From the NCBI GenBank assembly GCA_963723515.1, contig CAVRQT010000003.1:320001-384000 (forward strand): a DNA stretch of 64,000 nucleotides, given 5' to 3'. Each line of letters starts with the position of its first letter. Position 1 is the stretch's first letter. Positions 2,210-30,862 of this stretch are shown here, in pieces. The DNA is from Vulcanimicrobiota bacterium (GTDB lineage: Bacteria > Vulcanimicrobiota > Vulcanimicrobiia > Vulcanimicrobiales > Vulcanimicrobiaceae). The notes beneath the pieces are model-generated. The model ran no database searches, was not told where the DNA came from, and worked only from the letters and a program-made list of their open reading frames with translations. The translations under genes were made by a program, and so were the position numbers.

Positions 2210-3104
2210 CTAGATTGCCGCGGCGAGTGCGCGCGCTTTTTCTTTAACGGAATCTCGAATTTCACGAACCGCATCGATCGACTGACCGTTCGGATCGGCC
2301 AATCCCCAATCTTCATCGATGCGCGGCACGCTAAGCAAGTCGCAAGCCGCGACATCGCAACCCATCGTGATTATCTTGGATGCACGTCGGGCGATTGTGT
2401 CATGCAGCGTTTTGGGTCGCGCCGCTGATATGTCGATGCCGTCCTCGGCCATCACCGCAACGACGTGCGGATCCGGTGCGTCGGCGATCGCCGTTCCGGC
2501 GGAAGCGACTTCAACGCGATCGCCTGCGAATTGCCGCAGGTACGCCTCCGCCATTTGACTGCGGCCCGCATTATGTTTGCAAACGAAAAGCACGAGCGGC
2601 TTGAGGATCTTTTCCATCGCCAATACGTCCACGTACTTGCCATCAAGGCGCCCTTGCTCGCGAAACGTGCCCACTTCGGCGAAACCGCATTTGCGGTAGA
2701 GTCTCACGCCTGCCTCATTGGTCGGGCAGTGCGAAGAGCACGATCTTATGAAAGCGATTGGCGATCGCGGCTCGCTCGATATGTTGGAGCAACCGAGCTC
2801 CTATGCCGTGGCCTCGTTTATCACGCCGGACATAGATAGAAAGATCCGCGACACCCTCATATGCGCAGCGGTGCGAGTACGGATTGAGCGAGGCCCAGCC
2901 GACAACCGCGTCGCCTTCGGTTGCCACGAGGACGCGGTACCGCTCGCCCCGATCCTGATACCATTTCAGGATTTCGGACGCGGTCTTCGGATCGACGTCG
3001 AGCGTTGCGATCCGATCCTCGATCCCCTGATTGAAAATGAGCCGAATCGCCGCTACGTCATCTTGGCGCGCATTGCGAACAGTAATGCCTTGCGCGGTGG
3101 TCAT
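2210..3104 (-). CDS. ArsN-like GNAT acetyltransferase fused to LMW-PTP-type arsenate reductase domain (frameshift near 2722)
   Basis: IFNQGIEDRIATLD...YEGVADLSIYV (GNAT); removing one C gives LPTNEAGVRLYRKCGF, which continues into VLFVCKHNAGRSQMAEA (CX5R) and TMGC, DWGLADP. Confidence 0.8.
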
Positions 3105-3802
3105 GCGCGCGACTCATGCGGCACAGCAATTTCGGCTGCACGCGCTTTCAGACGCGGGGTAAGCCAACCGAAAAGCGCTGTTGCGGCGGCGGCACCTAAG
3201 AGTTGCGCGATGATGAACGGCGCCACATCGACGACTCGAATTCCCGCGAAAGTGTCGGAAAGCGCGCGGCCGACCGTTACTGCCGGATTTGCAAACGATG
3301 TGGACGGTGTGAACCAGTAGGCCGCGATGATATAACCTGCGACGGCGAAGGGCACGAGCGCCACGCGAAATCGAGCGCTTCCCCAGATGATGCACAGCAA
3401 ACCGAACGTGGCGATGAACTCGCTGAACCATTGCGACCCGCCGCTGCGTTCGTGATGCGGAAACGAAACGAACGGTAAGCCGAACATCACATTAGCGGTG
3501 ATGGCGCCCACGATCGCCCCGATAACCTGACCCGAGCAATAAAAAGCCGCATCGCGCCAGGATATTCCGCCGGCTGACGCATCGGATAGGGAAACGGCGG
3601 GGTTAAAATGGCCGCCTGAAATTGACCCAAAAGCGGCGATGATCGCGACTAACGCGCCGCCGGTTGCAACAGCATTCGCGAGAAGTGCCAACGCCGTATT
3701 ACCGCCCGAAAGGCGCTGCGCCATGATCCCGGAGCCGATAATGGCAGCAACTAAGATTGCCGTGCCGAGAAATTCACAAGTGACTCGGCGCGCGAGCGCC
3801 AC
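3101..3802 (-). CDS. MIP/aquaglyceroporin (AqpS-like arsenite channel)
   Basis: Two NPA motifs (HFNPAV, FANPAV), EFLGT; ars operon context. Confidence 0.9.
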   Translation of the reverse strand: MALARRVTCEFLGTAILVAAIIGSGIMAQRLSGGNTALALLANAVATGGALVAIIAAFGSISGGHFNPAVSLSDASAGGISWRDAAFYCSGQVIGAIVGAITANVMFGLPFVSFPHHERSGGSQWFSEFIATFGLLCIIWGSARFRVALVPFAVAGYIIAAYWFTPSTSFANPAVTVGRALSDTFAGIRVVDVAPFIIAQLLGAAAATALFGWLTPRLKARAAEIAVPHESRA

Positions 3803-26785: not shown

Positions 26786-27054
26786 TCCGGGGCGCAGGCG
26801 ATCATGGGATGCACCCTTGGGCATCAGCCCCGGTCGGTGGTATGAGTTCAATGGGCACGTTCACTACGTCATCAAAGATCCCGAGACCGGCACGATGGAT
26901 CTTCGTCAGCCGCTAGAGGGGCGCTTCAGCGCAGGCTAGCCGTAAGTATAGTCCAAAGCCGCCGGCACGCCGCCGGCACGCTGCTCCGTTATCGTGAGGG
27001 AGCGCCGCCTGAACTTTGGACTTACATCCTAGCCGGCGTGGAAAGGGATTTTCT

Positions 27055-27549
27055 GTGAAGCAAATTCTGGCTATCTTTATTTTGGTGCTCGTTGCAATAG
27101 CGCCAGCTGGCGCACAACCGATGGGTGGGATGGGTGCCATGGATTACTACGTCGGAACGTGGACGTGCGTCGGCGGTCCAGTCTCTCAGCCTTCGGCTCA
27201 AGCGACTGTCACGGTTGTCAAGAACGGCGGCGTTTTGAATTCAAGTGTGTCAGTTCCGGTGCAGCCGGGGATGAAAGCCGCATACTATTCGACTTTTGCA
27301 ATTTCTTACGACGGCAAGGGTCGCTATCTTCAAACCACGCTCGATAACTACGGAGCCTGGAGCGTATCCTATGCCCCTGCGTGGACTGGGAACACGGAAG
27401 CATGGACCGATCTTACAACGAGCGACGGCAAGCCCGGACACGGCGAGACGGTTCGCACTGATAACGACCATTACACGTATACGGGTTACGGGACTCCGAC
27501 GGGCACGGCGCCGACCTTCAAGATAGCGTGCCAGCGCCAATCCTCGTAA
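27055..27549 (+). CDS. Secreted beta-rich hypothetical protein (DUF1579/lipocalin-like)
   Basis: Signal peptide, YYVGTWTC, C-terminal Cys. Confidence 0.65.
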   Translation: MKQILAIFILVLVAIAPAGAQPMGGMGAMDYYVGTWTCVGGPVSQPSAQATVTVVKNGGVLNSSVSVPVQPGMKAAYYSTFAISYDGKGRYLQTTLDNYGAWSVSYAPAWTGNTEAWTDLTTSDGKPGHGETVRTDNDHYTYTGYGTPTGTAPTFKIACQRQSS

Positions 27550-27571
27550 CGAAGTAGCACGTCCGTTAGCT

Positions 27572-27602
27572 TAGCCCCCGTTGACAAGTTCAACTGGGGC
27601 TA
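27572..27602. terminator. Hairpin downstream of the secreted gene
   Basis: tagcccc-c-gttga-caagt-tcaac-t-ggggcta. Confidence 0.55.
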
Positions 27603-27645
27603 CTGAATCTGCAAGAAACTGTAAATCAGGCGGTTTTCAGTTTAA

Positions 27646-27667
27646 TTGGGATGACCGGGACTCGAAC
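27646..27667 (-). repeat. 22-bp duplicate of the tRNA-Leu 3' end (att-like)
   Basis: ttgggatgaccgggactcgaac, identical to 28631-28652. Confidence 0.92.
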
Positions 27668-27679
27668 GCTCAGCTGTCG

Positions 27680-28192
27680 TTATGACGCTAGGACTTGCCT
27701 CGCGTTGGCGCGGCGTGCGTCGCGATAAGAGCCCTTATTCTTGCCGCAATAGGTTTCTGTCTGGCTGTGGCAGTTTGGGCATAGTAAACGAAGATTTTCT
27801 AGTCTATTATCCTGGCGGTTGCCATTTACGTGATCGAGGTGCATCTCTAACCTCCGGGCGCGCCACTCCTTGATGCCGCACTGCGAACAACACAGATCTA
27901 GTCGATTCTCTCTAAGTAATTTGGCTTTGAGTTTAAATGTTCCACCGAAGTAGGGACTGTTCTTTACGAGTATCTGGGCCAGCGGCATTTTGCGGGCCCA
28001 ATCGTGAGTTTTGCCTCGAAGATGCCCTCTGCCGGTCCAGTGGGCGGTATCTAGGTGAAGCTTATCGATCATGTGGCGCAGGCTGACGTAGTTGCCGCCT
28101 GCAGGCTTAAGGTGAAGGAGGCGAAGCGCTTCAGCGGCAGAGTGCGCAGCTGCAACCGCTGTCGCAATCCTTTCATTTCTTGCAGACTCCAC
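27680..28192 (-). CDS. Free-standing HNH endonuclease with zinc-finger Cys pairs (start uncertain)
   Basis: CSQCG...LDHVNGNRQDNRLENLRLLCPNCHSQT; N-terminal helical AEALRLLHLKPAGGNY. Confidence 0.92.
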   Translation of the reverse strand: MESARNERIATAVAAAHSAAEALRLLHLKPAGGNYVSLRHMIDKLHLDTAHWTGRGHLRGKTHDWARKMPLAQILVKNSPYFGGTFKLKAKLLRENRLDLCCSQCGIKEWRARRLEMHLDHVNGNRQDNRLENLRLLCPNCHSQTETYCGKNKGSYRDARRANARQVLAS

Positions 28193-28631
28193 GCATCAAG
28201 CTTATGCCAAGCTTGTGCCATACGTATGGCATTTTGAGGATAACCACCGTGCGCCGCGTGAATCACTCAAAGAGAAAAGCGCTTGCAAAGGCATCGGGTT
28301 GGACACGTCTGTGCTTGGTGATAGGTTGCCTAAGCGAGTGCGCGGTGAACCGCGTGTGCAAAACGCCTCATTTGTCGCGATTGCTGTTGGACGCGAGATC
28401 AACATCGCAGACTTCTATGTCAACCTTCAGCGAGTTTGTCGGCACTGAGAACGTTAGCTATGTTGAGGCCTTGACCACGTGACTTCACCGCGAGACGGTT
28501 GCTGTCAGATCGTTGAGACCGAGCCGTCCATCGCCGGGCGCGCGCCTCAAGAGGATGAGAAACTGTCTTTTTTAGGAGTGACGGGCAAATAGTCGAGCAG
28601 CGATAGACAAATCATCGCGACCTAAACCGCT

Positions 28632-28939
28632 TGGGATGACCGGGACTCGAACCCGGACGCCCTCTCGGGCGACAGATTTTCACACCACTATAACTTTCGT
28701 TACCGCTCGCGTCTCAGCAAGAGCGTTTGTGGTCCGGACTGTGCCTTGACCCTAAGTTGCCCCGTAGGCCGCGCCCGTCCAGTCTCTACACCTTCGCGAT
28801 CGTAGCATCGCGCTTGGCTCGGCGTTGTCACGGCCCTTGCCAGAGAGTCCGCCGAATTTGAGCGCATCCCAAGATGCGTTTCCATCACCTTGGCTCAACG
28901 TTGCAAGTCTGTTGTGTCTACCGATTCCACCATCATCCC
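28632..28939 (-). tRNA. tRNA-Leu(UAA), exons 28939-28905 and 28680-28632
   Basis: Spliced: GGGATGATGGTGGAATCGGTAGACACAACAGACTT^AAAATCTGTCGCCCGAGAGGGCGTCCGGGTTCGAGTCCCGGTCATCCCA; acceptor GGGATGA/TCATCCC, long variable arm, loop CU-UAA-AA. Confidence 0.94.
28681..28904 (-). ncRNA. Group I intron (224 nt, ORF-less) in the tRNA-Leu U^AA anticodon
   Basis: TTGAGCC guide, P AAATTCGGCGGA, Q AACGCCGAGCCAAGC, R GTAGAGACTG, S CACAGTCC, terminal G. Confidence 0.92.
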
Positions 28940-29084
28940 ATGCATCGGACTGTTCGAGCGTTGCTTCCGCGACGCCCGTACACCTCGGCAGGGCTATCGC
29001 CGCGCCATCCAAAAGCGACGCCAGTTCCCCGGCAGGCTAACGTGTCAGCCGGGATTCGTCTTGTTTTAGGAGGCCACTCGGCGC

Positions 29085-29875
29085 GTGAAGATCGTCGTGA
29101 CCGTCAAGGTCGTGCCGGATCCAAACAGCATCAAACGGATCGATCCGAATACCAAGCGGCTCGTTCGCAGCGGCGCCGACAATGTCATCAACCCCTACGA
29201 TGAATATGCGCTCGAAGCGGCACTGCAGCTGAAAGAGAAGCTTGGCCCTGAGACGACCGTCAGCATCGTCAGCATGGTGCCGGAAAACGCGAAGGAAGTG
29301 GTCCGCAAAGCGCTTGCGATGGGGGCCGACGATGCGGTGATGTTGAGCGACTCTGCGTTCGAAGCCAGCGATGTTTGGGATACCGCGCGGGTTCTGTCCG
29401 AAGCGATTCGCAACCATGGGTTTGACCTCGTCATCTGCGGCGGACTGTCTGATGATGGAAGCACCGGCGCCGTCCCAGGCGCGCTTGCGCGAACATCTGC
29501 GGCGTTCCGGGACTCACAAACGCGCGTCACATCGACGTTGCCGATGGCAAGCTAACGATTCAGCGCGAAACGGATAGCGGTTATCAGGTCGTCTCAGGTC
29601 CGTTGCCTGCGATGGTCAGCGTGACGATGGGTGTTGGGGAGCCTCGTTACCCATCGCTTAAGGGCATCATGGGCGCGAAGAAAAAAAACATCGCGATGAC
29701 CTCGCATTCCGACCTGAGCGTCGATGACGCGCTCGGTGCAAATGGCGCAAAGACCGAATTGCTCGAGGTTGCCGCCCCTGCTGCACGCGAGAAAGGCCAA
29801 ATCGTCAATGCGAGTGACGGCGCCGAGGGTGCAAAGGCCATCTTCGACTTCTTGCAGCAACGCAAGCTGATCTAA
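29085..29875 (+). CDS. etfB: Electron transfer flavoprotein beta (frameshift near 29490)
   Basis: VKVVPD, INPYDEYALEAAL, ALAMGAD; EPRYPSLKGIMGAKKK in the second frame. Confidence 0.92.
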
Positions 29876-30862
29876 ATGCAACACGTCGTCATCTTCGCCG
29901 AACATCAAGGCGGGCACACGCGCAAAGTCACCTACGAACTTGCAACAGAAGCGCGACGACTTGCCGACGCGGTCGGCGGAAAAGCGCACGCGATTGTGCT
30001 GGGGAACGGCGCGAGCTCGTTAGCGGAGCAGCTCAAGCGCTATCCGCTTGATGTCATCCACGTAAGCGAAGATGCGGATGTCGATAAATTTCTTATCGAT
30101 CCGGTCGTCGATTACGTTGAGGCGCTCGCGCGTGATTTGGGGCCGTCGATCGTGCTCGTGCCCAATACGATGTATGGACGCGACATTGCCGGACGTTTAT
30201 CGGCGCGGCTTGGTTGCGGGCTCACCTCCGACGTCACGGACATCAAAATCGAGGGCGGTAAAGTCGACTGCATTTCGCCGAAGTTGGGGGGCGCCGCGAT
30301 CACCACGTGCACCTTCAAAAACAGCGACTACGCCGTTATGACGGCGCGGCCGAATGCGTTTGCGGTCGAAGCGGGCGGCGGGTCTGCGCAGGTGCAGCAA
30401 TTGGAGAAGCCGGCCGGCAGGTCGTATCGGATGGTGATCGAGCAAGATGTCGAGGAGGGCTCCGGCGAGCTTGGCCTGGAGGAAGCGCCTGTCGTGGTAG
30501 CGGGCGGGCGAGGCCTCGGCGGTCCTGAACCGTTCCAAACGCTCTTAAAGCCTCTTGCCGATGCCTTGGGCGGTGCTGTTGGCGCCTCACGAGCGGCAGC
30601 AGACGCCGGCTGGGTGCCCTACAGCCTGCAGATCGGCCAGACCGGCAAGACCGTCAGCCCGCCCCTCTACATCGCGATCGGGATTTCCGGGGCCATCCAG
30701 CACAAGGTCGGCATGCGAACGGCGGGAACGATCGTCGCGATCAATAAAGATGGCGGGGTCCCGATAGGAGAGTTCGCCGATCTGCTCGTCGTGGGCGATC
30801 TCTTTGCGATTGTTCCGGAGCTCACCAAGCTCATCCAGGGAGCGAAAGCAGCCCACGCGTGA
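29876..30862 (+). CDS. etfA: Electron transfer flavoprotein alpha
   Basis: GGRG, GASRAA, QIGQTGK, GISGAIQH, AINKD. Confidence 0.96.
   Translation: MQHVVIFAEHQGGHTRKVTYELATEARRLADAVGGKAHAIVLGNGASSLAEQLKRYPLDVIHVSEDADVDKFLIDPVVDYVEALARDLGPSIVLVPNTMYGRDIAGRLSARLGCGLTSDVTDIKIEGGKVDCISPKLGGAAITTCTFKNSDYAVMTARPNAFAVEAGGGSAQVQQLEKPAGRSYRMVIEQDVEEGSGELGLEEAPVVVAGGRGLGGPEPFQTLLKPLADALGGAVGASRAAADAGWVPYSLQIGQTGKTVSPPLYIAIGISGAIQHKVGMRTAGTIVAINKDGGVPIGEFADLLVVGDLFAIVPELTKLIQGAKAAHA

What the first reader, a model, noticed from the sequence alone, without database searches (positions are those of the whole stretch)
27646..28939. Integrase-free HNH cassette bounded by a duplicated tRNA-Leu 3' end, beside an ORF-less intron: candidate tRNA-targeting homing system
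Seen: the 22-bp T-loop-to-acceptor end of tRNA-Leu recurs 985 bp downstream, 12 nt after the stop of a co-oriented HNH gene; the interval has no integrase or other convincing gene; the tRNA anticodon carries an ORF-less group I intron. Known: tRNA 3' duplications mark insertions, and in phages free-standing endonucleases can mobilise adjacent ORF-less introns (collaborative homing) because the intron destroys the cut site. Inference: the HNH cuts intronless tRNA-Leu(UAA) alleles and spreads itself and the intron, or this is a minimal self-mobile tRNA-tail element. It could instead be the relic of a larger island.
Basis: partly seen in the sequence, partly recalled or inferred. Interest (0 to 1): 0.8.

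Follow-up and report, generated by a model that had tools for sequence, protein, structure and literature searches.

The report
HNH homing gene beside intron-split tRNA-Leu
A small DNA-cutting (HNH) gene sits next to a leucine-tRNA gene that is split by a self-splicing intron; its relatives in many bacteria and phages almost always sit beside or inside tRNA genes, so it is most likely a selfish "homing" gene aimed at this tRNA, while the repeated tRNA end around it looks like an ordinary scar of old insertions.

Summary
A minus-strand tRNA-Leu(UAA) (28939-28632) carries a 224-nt ORF-less group I intron. An intact 170-aa HNH gene lies downstream. An exact 22-bp copy of the tRNA 3' end follows 12 nt after its stop. 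No integrase lies between.

The HNH belongs to a large family tied to tRNA genes:
- All 3 copies in this genome lie within about 100 bp of a tRNA gene or fragment.
- So do most relatives in other phyla and in viral contigs, each clade with its own tRNA.
- In this class (Eremiobacteria by record titles), 12 of 385 genomes carry this ortholog.
- All 12 have the intron, against 172 of the other 373.
- Family members also sit inside tRNA-Leu(UAA) introns elsewhere.

The repeat is not specific to the HNH. Only 2 of the 12 orthologs have it. Other cargo is bounded the same way at this tRNA in relatives, and one has an integrase. Five other tRNAs here carry such repeats.

Verdict: a free-standing homing-type HNH that targets tRNA-Leu(UAA), lying in a decayed islet. 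Collaborative homing with the intron is plausible but unproven. This scan noted the same pairing earlier in phages. It is a new variant of a known kind.

The parts
28905..28939 (-). tRNA-Leu(UAA) 5' exon, ending in the anticodon-loop bases CUU
   Evidence: ARAGORN run with introns allowed in scripts; sequence read directly.
28681..28904 (-). ORF-less group I intron (224 nt), inserted between U34 and A35 of the anticodon and ending in G
   Evidence: Rfam Intron_gpI match at 24.6 bits, E 2e-4, covering the full model. In an alignment of 19 related genes, 42 of 85 predicted pairs show compensatory changes and the U.G pair at the 5' splice site is kept in 19 of 19.
28632..28680 (-). tRNA-Leu(UAA) 3' exon; no CCA is encoded
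28631..28652 (-). Proximal copy of the 22-bp repeat: T-loop to discriminator base of the intact tRNA, plus 1 nt
   Evidence: the repeat finder family D2, 100% identity.
28193..28630 (.). 438-bp spacer with no recognisable gene
   Evidence: Its ORFs of 37-100 aa have no Pfam hit. No nucleotide match in 40 relatives. No sigma-70-like promoter was found, and only one weak terminator-like hairpin at 28630-28617.
27680..28192 (-). HNH endonuclease gene (170 aa), intact: an N-terminal three-helix module followed by a zinc-binding HNH domain
   Evidence: Pfam HNH_3 and HNH. PHROG 10822, E 9e-45. C102, C105, C138, C141 are invariant and H121, N133, H142 nearly invariant across 95 homologues. AlphaFold2 model with mean pLDDT 88.9.
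27646..27667 (-). Distal copy of the tRNA tail, 12 nt after the HNH stop codon
26821..27645 (.). Probable second islet. It holds the ORF 27016-27549 on the + strand (177 aa, with a signal-peptide-like N-terminus). This segment is absent from the same place in the same-genus genome G001.
   Evidence: In G001 the tail copy abuts the HAD gene directly. The ORF has no Pfam hit. Its nucleotide relatives lie at other loci in G006 and G012. It shows only weak similarity (E 7e-4) to the ORF in the equivalent position of G160.
26806..26820 (-). Degenerate remnant of a third tail copy, abutting the start of the HAD-type hydrolase gene. It is the positional counterpart of the tail copy in G001.
   Evidence: Read by eye. 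It is too short and degenerate to test, so it is an inference.

Best explanation
The ORF at 27680-28192 is a free-standing homing-type HNH endonuclease gene. It belongs to a large family whose members live beside or inside tRNA genes, and to the clade of that family attached to tRNA-Leu(UAA).

Inferred mechanism. The enzyme recognises tRNA-Leu(UAA) gene DNA, most likely in or near the anticodon-loop region where the intron sits. It cuts alleles that lack the element. The cell's repair then copies the HNH gene, together with the neighbouring ORF-less group I intron, into the cut allele. This is collaborative, or trans, homing. The intron protects the resident tRNA gene by splitting the site, and it keeps the only tRNA-Leu(UAA) gene found in this genome functional by splicing itself out.

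The repeat. The 22-bp tail copy is a separate thing. It is an att-type scar of small integrative islets that have accumulated at tRNA 3' ends in this lineage and have mostly lost their integrase. The HNH gene lies inside the islet nearest the tRNA.

Shown here: the anatomy; an intact catalytic motif; the family-wide linkage to tRNA genes; the restriction of the orthologues to intron-bearing alleles in this class; and the generality of the tail scars.

Inferred, not shown: cleavage, the target site, protection by the intron, and copying by repair.
For: 1. Own genome. All 3 tblastn matches to the HNH lie within about 100 bp of a tRNA gene or fragment: this one, one before tRNA-Gln(CUG)-tRNA-Glu(CUC), and one before tRNA-Thr(UGU). 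My estimate of the chance for one random site is about 4%.

2. This class. 252 of 385 genomes have a match. The 11 other near-full-length orthologues (50-61% identity, E <= 1e-45) were set apart by sequence score alone. ARAGORN called an intron-containing tRNA-Leu(UAA) at 9 of these loci. At a tenth (G238, unpublished) the call was on the wrong strand and the exon sequences read as tRNA-Leu. The eleventh is cut by a contig end. In two genomes of one genus the HNH lies at the 5' side of the tRNA and is divergent, so it has settled on either side of this gene.

3. Link to the intron. 184 of 385 genomes have the intron. All 12 genomes with the orthologue do, against 172 of the other 373. Fisher one-sided p = 1e-4. 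This ignores relatedness. Taking the 9 genera as units gives about 4e-3.

4. An empty allele. The same-genus genome G001 has an intron-less tRNA-Leu(UAA) beside the same ETF genes and no HNH match. G001 is 77% complete.

5. Other phyla. 75 of 80 loci from GTDB species genomes have a tRNA within 500 bp. After dropping 5 duplicates, 63 of 75 are next to or inside a tRNA-Leu gene.

6. Viral contigs. 68 of 79 loci have a tRNA within 500 bp or lie inside a tRNA intron, and 35 of these involve tRNA-Leu(UAA). The 13 closest viral homologues all lie within 161 nt of a tRNA-Leu(UAA).

7. Tree. On a FastTree tree of 170 proteins, the 45-row branch holding this HNH (support 87) has 34 rows labelled tRNA-Leu(UAA). 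Two more have that tRNA just beyond 500 bp. Other branches are tied to one tRNA each: Leu(UAG) 36 of 36, Leu(CAA) 8 of 8, Gln-Glu 14 of 14. The labels need 42 changes against 97.8 when shuffled.

8. Intron-encoded relatives. Family members lie inside the ARAGORN-called intron of tRNA-Leu(UAA) in L074, L078, L130, L159 and L208. A group I core is confirmed by Rfam in L078 at 47.8 bits and by core motifs in L159 and L208. Intron-encoded nucleases normally cut the intron-less allele at the insertion site; this is established knowledge, reviewed in PMC3984707 (passages read).

9. Selection and decay. pN is 0.17-0.35 against saturated pS of 0.79-0.89, which indicates purifying selection. Some copies are decayed: frameshifts in G239 and G319, and a stop codon in G078. 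That pattern fits the life cycle of homing genes.

10. The tails are generic.
- Only G000 and G160 of the 12 orthologue loci have a tail copy after the HNH.
- 7 of the 30 relatives' genomes with any tail match have two or more copies, spaced from 0.24 kb to tens of kb.
- The cargo between them is varied: GNAT, sulfatase plus amidase, hydrolases, MerR.
- In G005 a full integrase ends about 0.2 kb from a tail copy. In G007 an integrase fragment lies 158 bp from the tRNA.
- Five other tRNAs of this genome have co-oriented downstream tail copies.
Against: No cleavage, target site or mobility has been shown.

Clade members in phages and in betaproteobacterial MAGs sit beside intron-less tRNA-Leu(UAA) genes. 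The intron is therefore not needed for coexistence in general, and the target may lie elsewhere in or beside the tRNA.

Synonymous sites are saturated between all orthologue pairs. No recent transfer is visible. An old arrangement inherited vertically with many losses would also give a patchy distribution.

The apparent conflict with genus labels does not settle this. G119 and G160 share a genus but are 51% identical, while G119 and G350 are 81% identical. The flanks of G119 and G350 are also 82-87% alike, so transfer is not shown.

In G000 the HNH abuts the distal tail (12 nt) rather than the tRNA (438 nt away). That fits arrival as part of an islet.

The Gln-Glu-linked sister clade sits in one conserved position in 14 of 14 rows of its branch on the tree. 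That looks more like a maintained host gene than a parasite.

The tree rests on 130 columns, and many of its forks are unresolved.
Confidence: 0.55

Rival explanations
1. Passive relic. The 985-bp unit is what remains of a larger integrase-mobilised island that inserted into the 3' end of tRNA-Leu. The HNH is surviving cargo, for example phage-derived, and has no targeting relation to the tRNA or the intron.
For: Tail-bounded segments at this tRNA occur in 7 of the 30 relatives' genomes with a tail match. One has an integrase (G005) and one an integrase fragment (G007). Five other tRNAs of this genome have such tails. The tail boundaries fall at the T-loop (G000, G001) or the anticodon stem (G160), which I recall as the classical integrase crossover positions. 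The HNH abuts the distal tail.
Against: 9 of the 11 other orthologue loci have no tail within 1.5 kb yet still sit beside the tRNA, on either side of it. The family-wide, clade-specific linkage to tRNA genes in several phyla and in viral contigs cannot be explained by passive cargo. The gene is intact and under purifying selection.
Confidence: 0.15
2. Minimal nuclease-driven tail element. The HNH cuts tRNA-Leu DNA in the 3' half. The cassette is then copied in using the tRNA and the tail copy as homology, or by one-ended repair. The tail repeats are footprints of the nuclease's break, not of an integrase.
For: In G000 and G160 the segment between the tRNA and the first tail holds only the HNH gene. 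In G160 the tail starts 5 nt after the intron insertion site. In G000 it starts at the T-loop motif GTTCGAGTCC. The T4 nuclease SegB, which is encoded in a tRNA cluster, recognises that class of motif, GGTTCRANTCC (PMC2330249, abstract and passages read).
Against: Tails also bound cargo without any HNH at this tRNA (G001, G003, G008, G010) and at five other tRNAs of this genome. Integrases accompany tails in G005 and G007. 9 of the 11 other orthologue loci lack tails.
Confidence: 0.1
3. Domesticated or host-beneficial nuclease. The tRNA-adjacent HNH is kept because it serves the cell, for example expressed together with the tRNA under translational stress or acting against invading DNA that carries tRNA genes. 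It is inherited mainly vertically.
For: There is purifying selection over deep divergence. The Gln-Glu-linked sister clade sits in one conserved position in 14 of 14 rows of its branch on the tree, and 252 of 385 genomes have an HNH match of some kind. In Anabaena the HNH gene all8564 upstream of a tRNA operon is induced together with it (PMC8421152, passages read).
Against: This orthologue is present in only 12 of 385 genomes of the class. Several copies have decayed, including this genome's own Gln-linked copy. The same family sits inside group I introns and in phage tRNA clusters.
Confidence: 0.15

Closest known systems
[quoted passage not shown] The examples are cyanophage S-PM2 psbA with F-CphI and T4 nrdB with MobE/I-TevIII. 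Source: review PMC3984707 (passages read); titles of PMC2790892 and PMC6083498 seen in the listing.
   Same: [quoted passage not shown] In this class the nuclease is found only with intron-bearing alleles.
   Different: The host gene here is a chromosomal bacterial tRNA gene, not a phage protein-coding gene. Cleavage at the intron insertion site is not shown. Clade members also coexist with intron-less tRNA-Leu(UAA) elsewhere.
[quoted passage not shown] The primary paper, Akulenko 2004, was seen only as a reference.
   Same: The family is the same by sequence. 232 phage records match this HNH. A matching Enterococcus phage gene is annotated 'hegA, H-N-H endonuclease F-TflIV' and lies between tRNA genes.
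   Different: Those lie in phage tRNA clusters. Identity to this protein is only about 40%. Their cleavage specificity was not read here, because the primary paper is not in the library.
T4 SegB, a GIY-YIG homing endonuclease encoded in the tRNA cluster (PMC2330249, abstract and passages read)
   Same: It is a free-standing nuclease encoded among tRNA genes. It cuts within tRNA genes and drives inheritance of itself and the neighbouring tRNA genes. Its recognition core is the T-psi-C motif, which is also where the 22-bp repeat begins here.
   Different: It has a different catalytic fold (GIY-YIG, not HNH), it is a phage gene, and no intron is involved.
HNH genes associated with bacterial tRNA arrays: all8564 upstream of cyanobacterial L-arrays (PMC8421152) and mycobacterial tRNA array units (PMC5966550). 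Passages were read in both.
   Same: Cyanobacterial tRNA-array loci were recovered as homologues of this HNH (L083, L086, L091, L125). The adjacency of HNH genes to tRNA genes has therefore been noted in print.
   Different: Those papers describe long multi-tRNA arrays on mobile DNA. Here the partner is a single chromosomal tRNA gene with an intron. In the passages read, neither paper reports that each HNH clade keeps to one specific tRNA.
[quoted passage not shown]
   Same: The insertion site is the same (CUU/AAAA), with U at -1 and a terminal G, a small size and no ORF.
   Different: The host is an Eremiobacteria genome. The intron scores below Rfam's threshold. About half of the class has it.
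Genomic islands integrated at tRNA 3' ends and bounded by a direct repeat of the tRNA end (general knowledge, recalled; the preprint read mentions programs for finding such islands)
   Same: There is a direct repeat of the tRNA 3' part downstream. Relatives have tandem arrays of such segments, with an integrase in G005 and an integrase fragment in G007.
   Different: In this genome the bounded segment is under 1 kb and has no integrase.

Membership tests
HNH (His-Me finger) endonuclease | A beta-beta-alpha-metal motif with the catalytic His, Asn and His, and two CxxC zinc-binding pairs | tested here: met
   Pfam HNH_3 at 27.5 bits and HNH at 26.2 bits, both above their cut-offs. C102, C105, C138, C141 are invariant and H121, N133, H142 nearly invariant in 95 homologues. 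The model shows strands 118-121 and 134-137 followed by a helix at 139-142.
Free-standing homing endonuclease gene | Site-specific cleavage of alleles that lack the gene, followed by copying of the gene into them | not testable with these tools
   This needs an enzyme assay and crosses.
Free-standing homing endonuclease gene | Sporadic presence at one conserved locus, with empty alleles in close relatives and some decayed copies | tested here: met
   12 of 385 genomes, spread over 9 genera, all beside tRNA-Leu(UAA). The same-genus genome G001 is empty. Frameshifted or stop-containing copies occur in G239, G319 and G078.
Free-standing homing endonuclease gene | Evidence of horizontal movement, seen as a gene tree that conflicts with the host tree | tested here: inconclusive
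   The same-genus pair G119/G160 is 51% identical, while G119/G350 from different genera is 81% identical. The flanks of G119 and G350 are also alike. Synonymous sites are saturated.
Collaborative homing pair | An ORF-less self-splicing intron in the gene next to the nuclease gene | tested here: met
   Splicing itself is inferred. This is the only tRNA-Leu(UAA) gene found in the genome, which is 88% complete.
Collaborative homing pair | [quoted passage not shown] | tested here: inconclusive
   The target could not be tested. Co-occurrence is 12 of 12 in this class against 172 of 373. [quoted passage not shown]
   24.6 bits against 50, and no hit at gathering threshold. The preprint read states that none of the model's seed sequences is bacterial and that it used cut-offs of 18-20 bits.
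Group I intron | A conserved paired core supported by covariation, a U.G pair at the 5' splice site, and a terminal G | tested here: met
   85 pairs, 42 of them with compensatory changes. U.G is kept in 19 of 19. The intron ends in G before AAAA.
tRNA-targeted integrative island | A direct repeat of the tRNA 3' part at the far end | tested here: met
tRNA-targeted integrative island | An integrase gene within the bounded segment | tested here: not met
   There is no Pfam hit in the spacer ORFs. The genome's only PF00589 matches are at C3:681986 and C1:4-498. Serine recombinases were not searched. The feature is met in the relative G005 and, as a fragment, in G007.

The most novel reading that the evidence does not exclude
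One HNH lineage may be caught, at a single target gene, in all three stages proposed for the birth of mobile group I introns. It is free-standing beside intron-less tRNA-Leu(UAA) in phages and betaproteobacterial MAGs. It is free-standing beside an ORF-less intron in this class. It lies inside the intron in Armatimonadota and Acetivibrionales MAGs and in viral contigs.

In the boldest version, the nuclease is itself the engine of integrase-free insertion at this tRNA. The duplicated tRNA ends would then mark its break points, left by one-ended repair. In G160 the tail starts 5 nt from the intron site, and in G000 it starts at the T-loop. Homing nucleases would in that case create the tRNA-tail scars that are usually credited to integrases.
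Probability: 0.12. Interest if true: 0.8.

Novelty: new variant of a known kind. Interest (0 to 1): 0.55.

Why it matters
Collaborative homing, in which a free-standing nuclease helps an ORF-less intron to spread, is the favoured route to mobile group I introns. In the review passages read here it rests on two phage protein-coding genes.

Here the same geometry appears in a chromosomal bacterial tRNA gene, across 9 genera of an uncultured class. Relatives of the same nuclease also lie beside intron-less copies and inside the intron. That gives a natural series in which the hypothesis can be tested with simple cleavage assays.

The data also show a general rule: each clade of this HNH family keeps to one particular tRNA gene. 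This may explain why HNH genes accompany tRNA arrays. It would also be a source of nucleases with tRNA-gene specificity.

A practical caution follows. Default tRNA and Rfam scans miss this tRNA entirely, so such loci go unannotated.

Tried and rejected
- Sequencing runs. None was listed for window 27600-29000, and no RNA holder was listed. Splicing and expression could therefore not be examined, and read laying was not used.
- Solved structures by sequence. A profile of 9 orthologues found no PDB chain at E <= 0.01.
- Fold search. Foldseek of the model against the PDB gave no match at E <= 0.001. There were only weak HNH-domain rows (McrA, Cas5-HNH, Gme HNH) at E 0.1-1. Other fold libraries were not tried.
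- NCBIfam. Only weak domain-level hits to ZorE and IscB, far below their cut-offs. I do not read these as membership.
- Promoter scan. No sigma-70-like site in 27500-29150. This organism's promoters may differ.
- dN/dS. dS could not be computed because synonymous sites are saturated, so only pN and pS are given.
- Test for co-transfer of intron and HNH. Intron similarity follows HNH similarity for G119, G350 and G371. The flanks are similar too, so I do not count this as evidence of transfer.
The 'none' counts and the distance values for loci without a listed tRNA were discarded. The count was redone with three ARAGORN passes merged. L074 was still missed there and was found when run alone.
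- The ORF of the second islet in G000 against the ORF in the same position of G160: 32% identity over 60 aa, E 7e-4, and no tblastn hit at 1e-3. This is too weak to claim shared ancestry of the two-islet layout.
- A decayed integrase in the 438-bp spacer. Its ORFs have no Pfam hit. A direct comparison with the G005 and G007 integrases was planned but not run.
- Literature. Searches listed no paper whose title or abstract start describes an HNH gene tied to single chromosomal tRNA-Leu genes or to Eremiobacteria tRNA introns; only a few of the listed papers were opened. The library lacks most subscription journals. Supplements, including Table 1 of the preprint read, which is an image, were not seen.
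Full report
**What is there**

The window is G000:C3:320001-384000 of a 2.11-Mb genome in 4 contigs, 88% complete. Titles of related records place its class as Eremiobacteria, also written Candidatus Eremiobacterota or Vulcanimicrobiota.

On the minus strand lies a tRNA-Leu(UAA) gene:
- 5' exon 28939-28905
- 224-nt intron 28904-28681
- 3' exon 28680-28632

Default ARAGORN and Rfam at gathering threshold do not see it. ARAGORN finds it when introns are allowed.

Downstream come four further parts:
- a 438-bp spacer with no recognisable gene
- a 170-aa HNH ORF at 28192-27680
- 12 nt of spacer
- an exact 22-bp copy of the tRNA's T-loop-to-discriminator end plus 1 nt, at 27667-27646

These are the only two copies of the tail in the window and in the genome. 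The flanking genes are ETF subunits on one side and a HAD-type hydrolase on the other.

**The intron**

The intron matches Rfam Intron_gpI across the full model, but at 24.6 bits against a gathering score of 50 (E 2e-4).

I aligned 19 tRNA-Leu(UAA) genes with introns, 18 from this class and one from a betaproteobacterial MAG. The consensus fold has 85 pairs, and 42 of them show compensatory changes. It comprises the four tRNA stems and a set of intron helices. A short helix at the 5' splice site keeps its U.G pair in 19 of 19 sequences, and each intron ends in G before AAAA. This is the classical position, called 'Leu.3Ug' in the Williams 2020 preprint.

This is the only tRNA-Leu(UAA) gene that ARAGORN finds in the genome. 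The intron presumably splices, but that is an inference.

An intron match at E <= 1e-10 is present in 184 of 385 genomes of the class.

**The HNH protein**

- It hits Pfam HNH_3 and HNH.
- Its best family match is PHROG 10822, 'HNH endonuclease', at E 9e-45.
- The two CxxC pairs and the His, Asn and His of the motif are conserved across 95 homologues.
- The AlphaFold2 model (mean pLDDT 88.9, pTM 0.58) shows an N-terminal three-helix module, a less confident linker, a second small helical part and the zinc-binding HNH domain.
- No solved structure is close by sequence or by Foldseek.

**The decisive comparison: where the relatives sit**

*This genome.* All 3 tblastn matches lie within about 100 bp of a tRNA gene or fragment.

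*This class.* 252 of 385 genomes have a match. A clear gap in score, from E 1e-45 to E 1e-29, separates 11 near-full-length orthologues from the rest.
- ARAGORN called an intron-containing tRNA-Leu(UAA) at nine of these loci.
- A tenth, in the unpublished genome G238, has the same gene called on the wrong strand.
- The eleventh is cut by a contig end.
- In eight loci the HNH follows the tRNA on the same strand. The gap is about 20-130 nt in six of them and about 0.5-0.9 kb in two.
- In the two genomes of genus g14 it lies on the other side of the tRNA and is divergent.
- The more distant matches among the top 30 loci lie just upstream of tRNA-Gln(CUG)-tRNA-Glu(CUC) in 15 of 18. This genome's second, apparently frameshifted, copy does the same.

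*Other phyla.* 75 of 80 loci have a tRNA within 500 bp.
- In Actinomycetota the partner is tRNA-Leu(UAG).
- In Acidobacteriota it is tRNA-Leu(CAA).
- In betaproteobacterial MAGs it is tRNA-Leu(UAA), once with an intron.
- In cyanobacteria the gene lies within tRNA arrays.

*Viral contigs.* 68 of 79 loci have a tRNA within 500 bp or lie inside a tRNA intron. 35 involve tRNA-Leu(UAA). The 13 closest are all within 161 nt of one.

*Tree.* A FastTree tree of 170 proteins groups the sequences by partner tRNA. It rests on 130 columns and is weakly resolved. The labels need 42 changes against 97.8 when shuffled.

*Inside the intron.* In five loci the HNH lies inside the intron of a tRNA-Leu(UAA) gene.

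*GenBank phages.* A homologue annotated as hegA / F-TflIV lies between tRNA genes. The best match, at 56% identity, abuts a five-gene tRNA-Leu array.

**Link to the intron**

All 12 genomes with the orthologue have the intron, against 172 of the other 373. Fisher one-sided p is 1e-4. This overstates the case, because relatives are not independent. Taking the 9 genera as units gives about 4e-3.

The same-genus genome G001 has an intron-less tRNA-Leu(UAA) at the same place and no HNH match. G001 is 77% complete.

This pattern is what collaborative homing predicts. The weight of the argument is limited, because clade members elsewhere live beside intron-less tRNA-Leu(UAA) genes.

**The duplicated tail**

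Several results show that it is not a property of the HNH.

- Only G000 and G160 of the 12 orthologue loci have a tail after the HNH.
- In 41 genomes searched, 30 had a tail match. Seven of those had two or more copies, all on one contig and strand:
  - G000, 985 bp apart
  - G001, 822 bp apart
  - G003, 719 bp apart
  - G005, three copies
  - G007, 7.2 kb apart
  - G008, three copies
  - G010, five copies bounding segments of 0.84, 1.04, 4.6 and 1.5 kb
- The cargo between the copies is unrelated: a GNAT acetyltransferase (G001), a sulfatase plus an amidase and an alpha/beta hydrolase (G010), and a MerR/GyrI regulator (G007).
- In G005 a full tyrosine-integrase ORF ends about 0.2 kb before a tail copy. 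In G007 an integrase fragment containing a stop codon lies 158 bp from the tRNA.
- In G008 an intron-less tRNA-Leu is followed, 70 nt later, by a 5'-truncated intron plus a complete 3' exon. A third tail follows further on.
- In this genome five other tRNAs have co-oriented tail copies 0.1-30 kb downstream: Glu-UUC, Thr-CGU, Asn-GUU, Ser-GGA and Asp-GUC. The genome has only two tyrosine-recombinase matches, both elsewhere.

The simplest reading is that tRNA 3' ends in this lineage collect small integrative islets that soon lose their integrase. The HNH lies within the innermost islet at tRNA-Leu.

A degenerate third tail beside the HAD gene matches the position of G001's tail. It suggests that 26821-27645, with its 177-aa ORF, is a second islet. 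That is an inference.

**How it most likely works, and what speaks against it**

I take the HNH to be a free-standing homing endonuclease aimed at tRNA-Leu(UAA) gene DNA, with the intron as its partner. In this reading the intron splits the site in the resident copy and is carried along by co-conversion.

Shown here:
- an intact motif
- purifying selection, with pN 0.17-0.35 against saturated pS
- a patchy distribution with decayed copies
- clade-specific linkage to tRNA genes
- intron-encoded relatives

Not shown: any cleavage, the target site, or any movement.

Against this reading:
- Synonymous saturation means that no recent transfer is visible.
- The one apparent conflict with genus labels is undercut by similar flanks.
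- In G000 the gene abuts the distal tail rather than the tRNA.
- The sister clade at tRNA-Gln/Glu sits in one conserved position in all 14 rows of its branch on the tree. That looks like a maintained gene and leaves room for a host function, such as the co-regulation reported for all8564 in Anabaena.

**Comparison with what is known**

HNH genes near tRNA genes are in print for:
- phage T5 (seen as references)
- cyanobacterial L-arrays
- mycobacterial tRNA arrays

T4 SegB, which has a different fold, cuts tRNA genes at the T-psi-C motif and drives inheritance of its tRNA region.

In the review read here, collaborative homing is described for two phage systems, and the two titles seen in the listing name protein-coding genes (psbA; I-TevIII).

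In my five literature searches I did not find three things:
- a free-standing HNH tied to a single chromosomal tRNA-Leu gene
- its restriction to intron-bearing alleles
- the one-clade-one-tRNA pattern

Earlier notes of this scan describe the same pairing in phages (e1-5369104, e1-6022442) and HNH genes inside tRNA-Leu introns (e1-3282759, e1-4211751). The kind has therefore been seen before in this scan on other DNA.

**Claims that rest partly on unpublished genomes**

- The count of 12 orthologues and the 12-of-12 intron count include G238.
- The class-wide tallies include the genomes flagged there.
- The lists include G009 and G020.

**Verdict**

The finding is real and anatomically clear. 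It is a new variant of a known kind. Interest is moderate to high, because the homing hypothesis can be tested directly at the bench.

Noticed in passing
G000:C3:1059016-1059622 (same genome, outside the window): A second HNH paralogue lies 47 nt upstream of tRNA-Gln(CUG)-tRNA-Glu(CUC). It is read in two frames, so it is either frameshifted or carries an assembly error. Its N-terminal part has two repeats of a YDW..VQ.YYD.GHT motif. The same HNH-Gln-Glu arrangement holds in 15 of 18 more distant matches from other genomes of the class, which makes it a conserved, possibly maintained gene.
   Followed up: partly
G000:C3:503889-504700 (same genome, outside the window): A third HNH-type ORF ends just upstream of tRNA-Thr(UGU). 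About 250 bp upstream of the ORF lies a sequence that looks like the 5' half of a long-arm (class II) tRNA, with acceptor and D-arm but no matching 3' half nearby.
   Followed up: no
G000: tRNA-Glu(UUC) C2:837176, tRNA-Thr(CGU) C3:87851, tRNA-Asn(GUU) C3:401916, tRNA-Ser(GGA) C3:613186, tRNA-Asp(GUC) C3:985353: Each of these tRNAs has a co-oriented copy of its last 20 nt (0-2 mismatches) 0.1-30 kb downstream. The genome shows only two tyrosine-recombinase matches, and neither is nearby. Integrase-less tail-bounded islets therefore seem common in this genome. Their content was not examined.
   Followed up: partly
L014 (G008:C69:16500-22000), positions 2325-3378: An intron-less tRNA-Leu(UAA) is followed, 70 nt later, by a 5'-truncated group I intron plus a complete 3' exon. 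A third tail copy lies about 700 bp further on. This looks like the footprint of an event that replaced an intron-bearing allele with an intron-less one. The 3' end of the intact tRNA pairs less well with its 5' end than the displaced 3' end would.
   Followed up: partly
L136 (G010:C1:975000-985500): Five tRNA-Leu tail copies bound four successive segments of 0.84, 1.04, 4.6 and 1.5 kb. The segments carry a sulfatase plus an amidase, an alpha/beta hydrolase and unknown ORFs. No integrase was detected among the ORFs scanned.
   Followed up: partly
window 29085-29876: The first ETF gene (ETF domain) is open for only 156 aa and covers positions 4-109 of the 181-position Pfam model. The second ETF gene (ETF plus ETF_alpha domains) starts at 29876. 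The downstream sequence seems to continue the protein in another frame. This is a frameshift or an assembly error, and it may bear on how far other frameshifts in this assembly can be trusted.
   Followed up: no
L053-L132 (GTDB loci) and the tree: Across phyla, each clade of this HNH family keeps to one tRNA partner and one geometry. In Actinomycetota it lies upstream of tRNA-Leu(UAG), often overlapping it or within 80 nt. In Acidobacteriota it is convergent with tRNA-Leu(CAA) at 4-11 nt. In betaproteobacterial MAGs the order is tRNA-Gly, tRNA-Cys, HNH, tRNA-Leu(UAA).
   Followed up: partly
G000:C1:11064-11371, C1:149068-149260, C3:653628-653851: With introns allowed, ARAGORN also calls a tRNA-Thr(CGU) with a 208-nt intron, a tRNA-Trp with a 95-nt intron and a tRNA-Leu(CAG) with a 131-nt intron. 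Normal copies of all three exist elsewhere. These may be false calls or tRNA fragments and were not checked.
   Followed up: no
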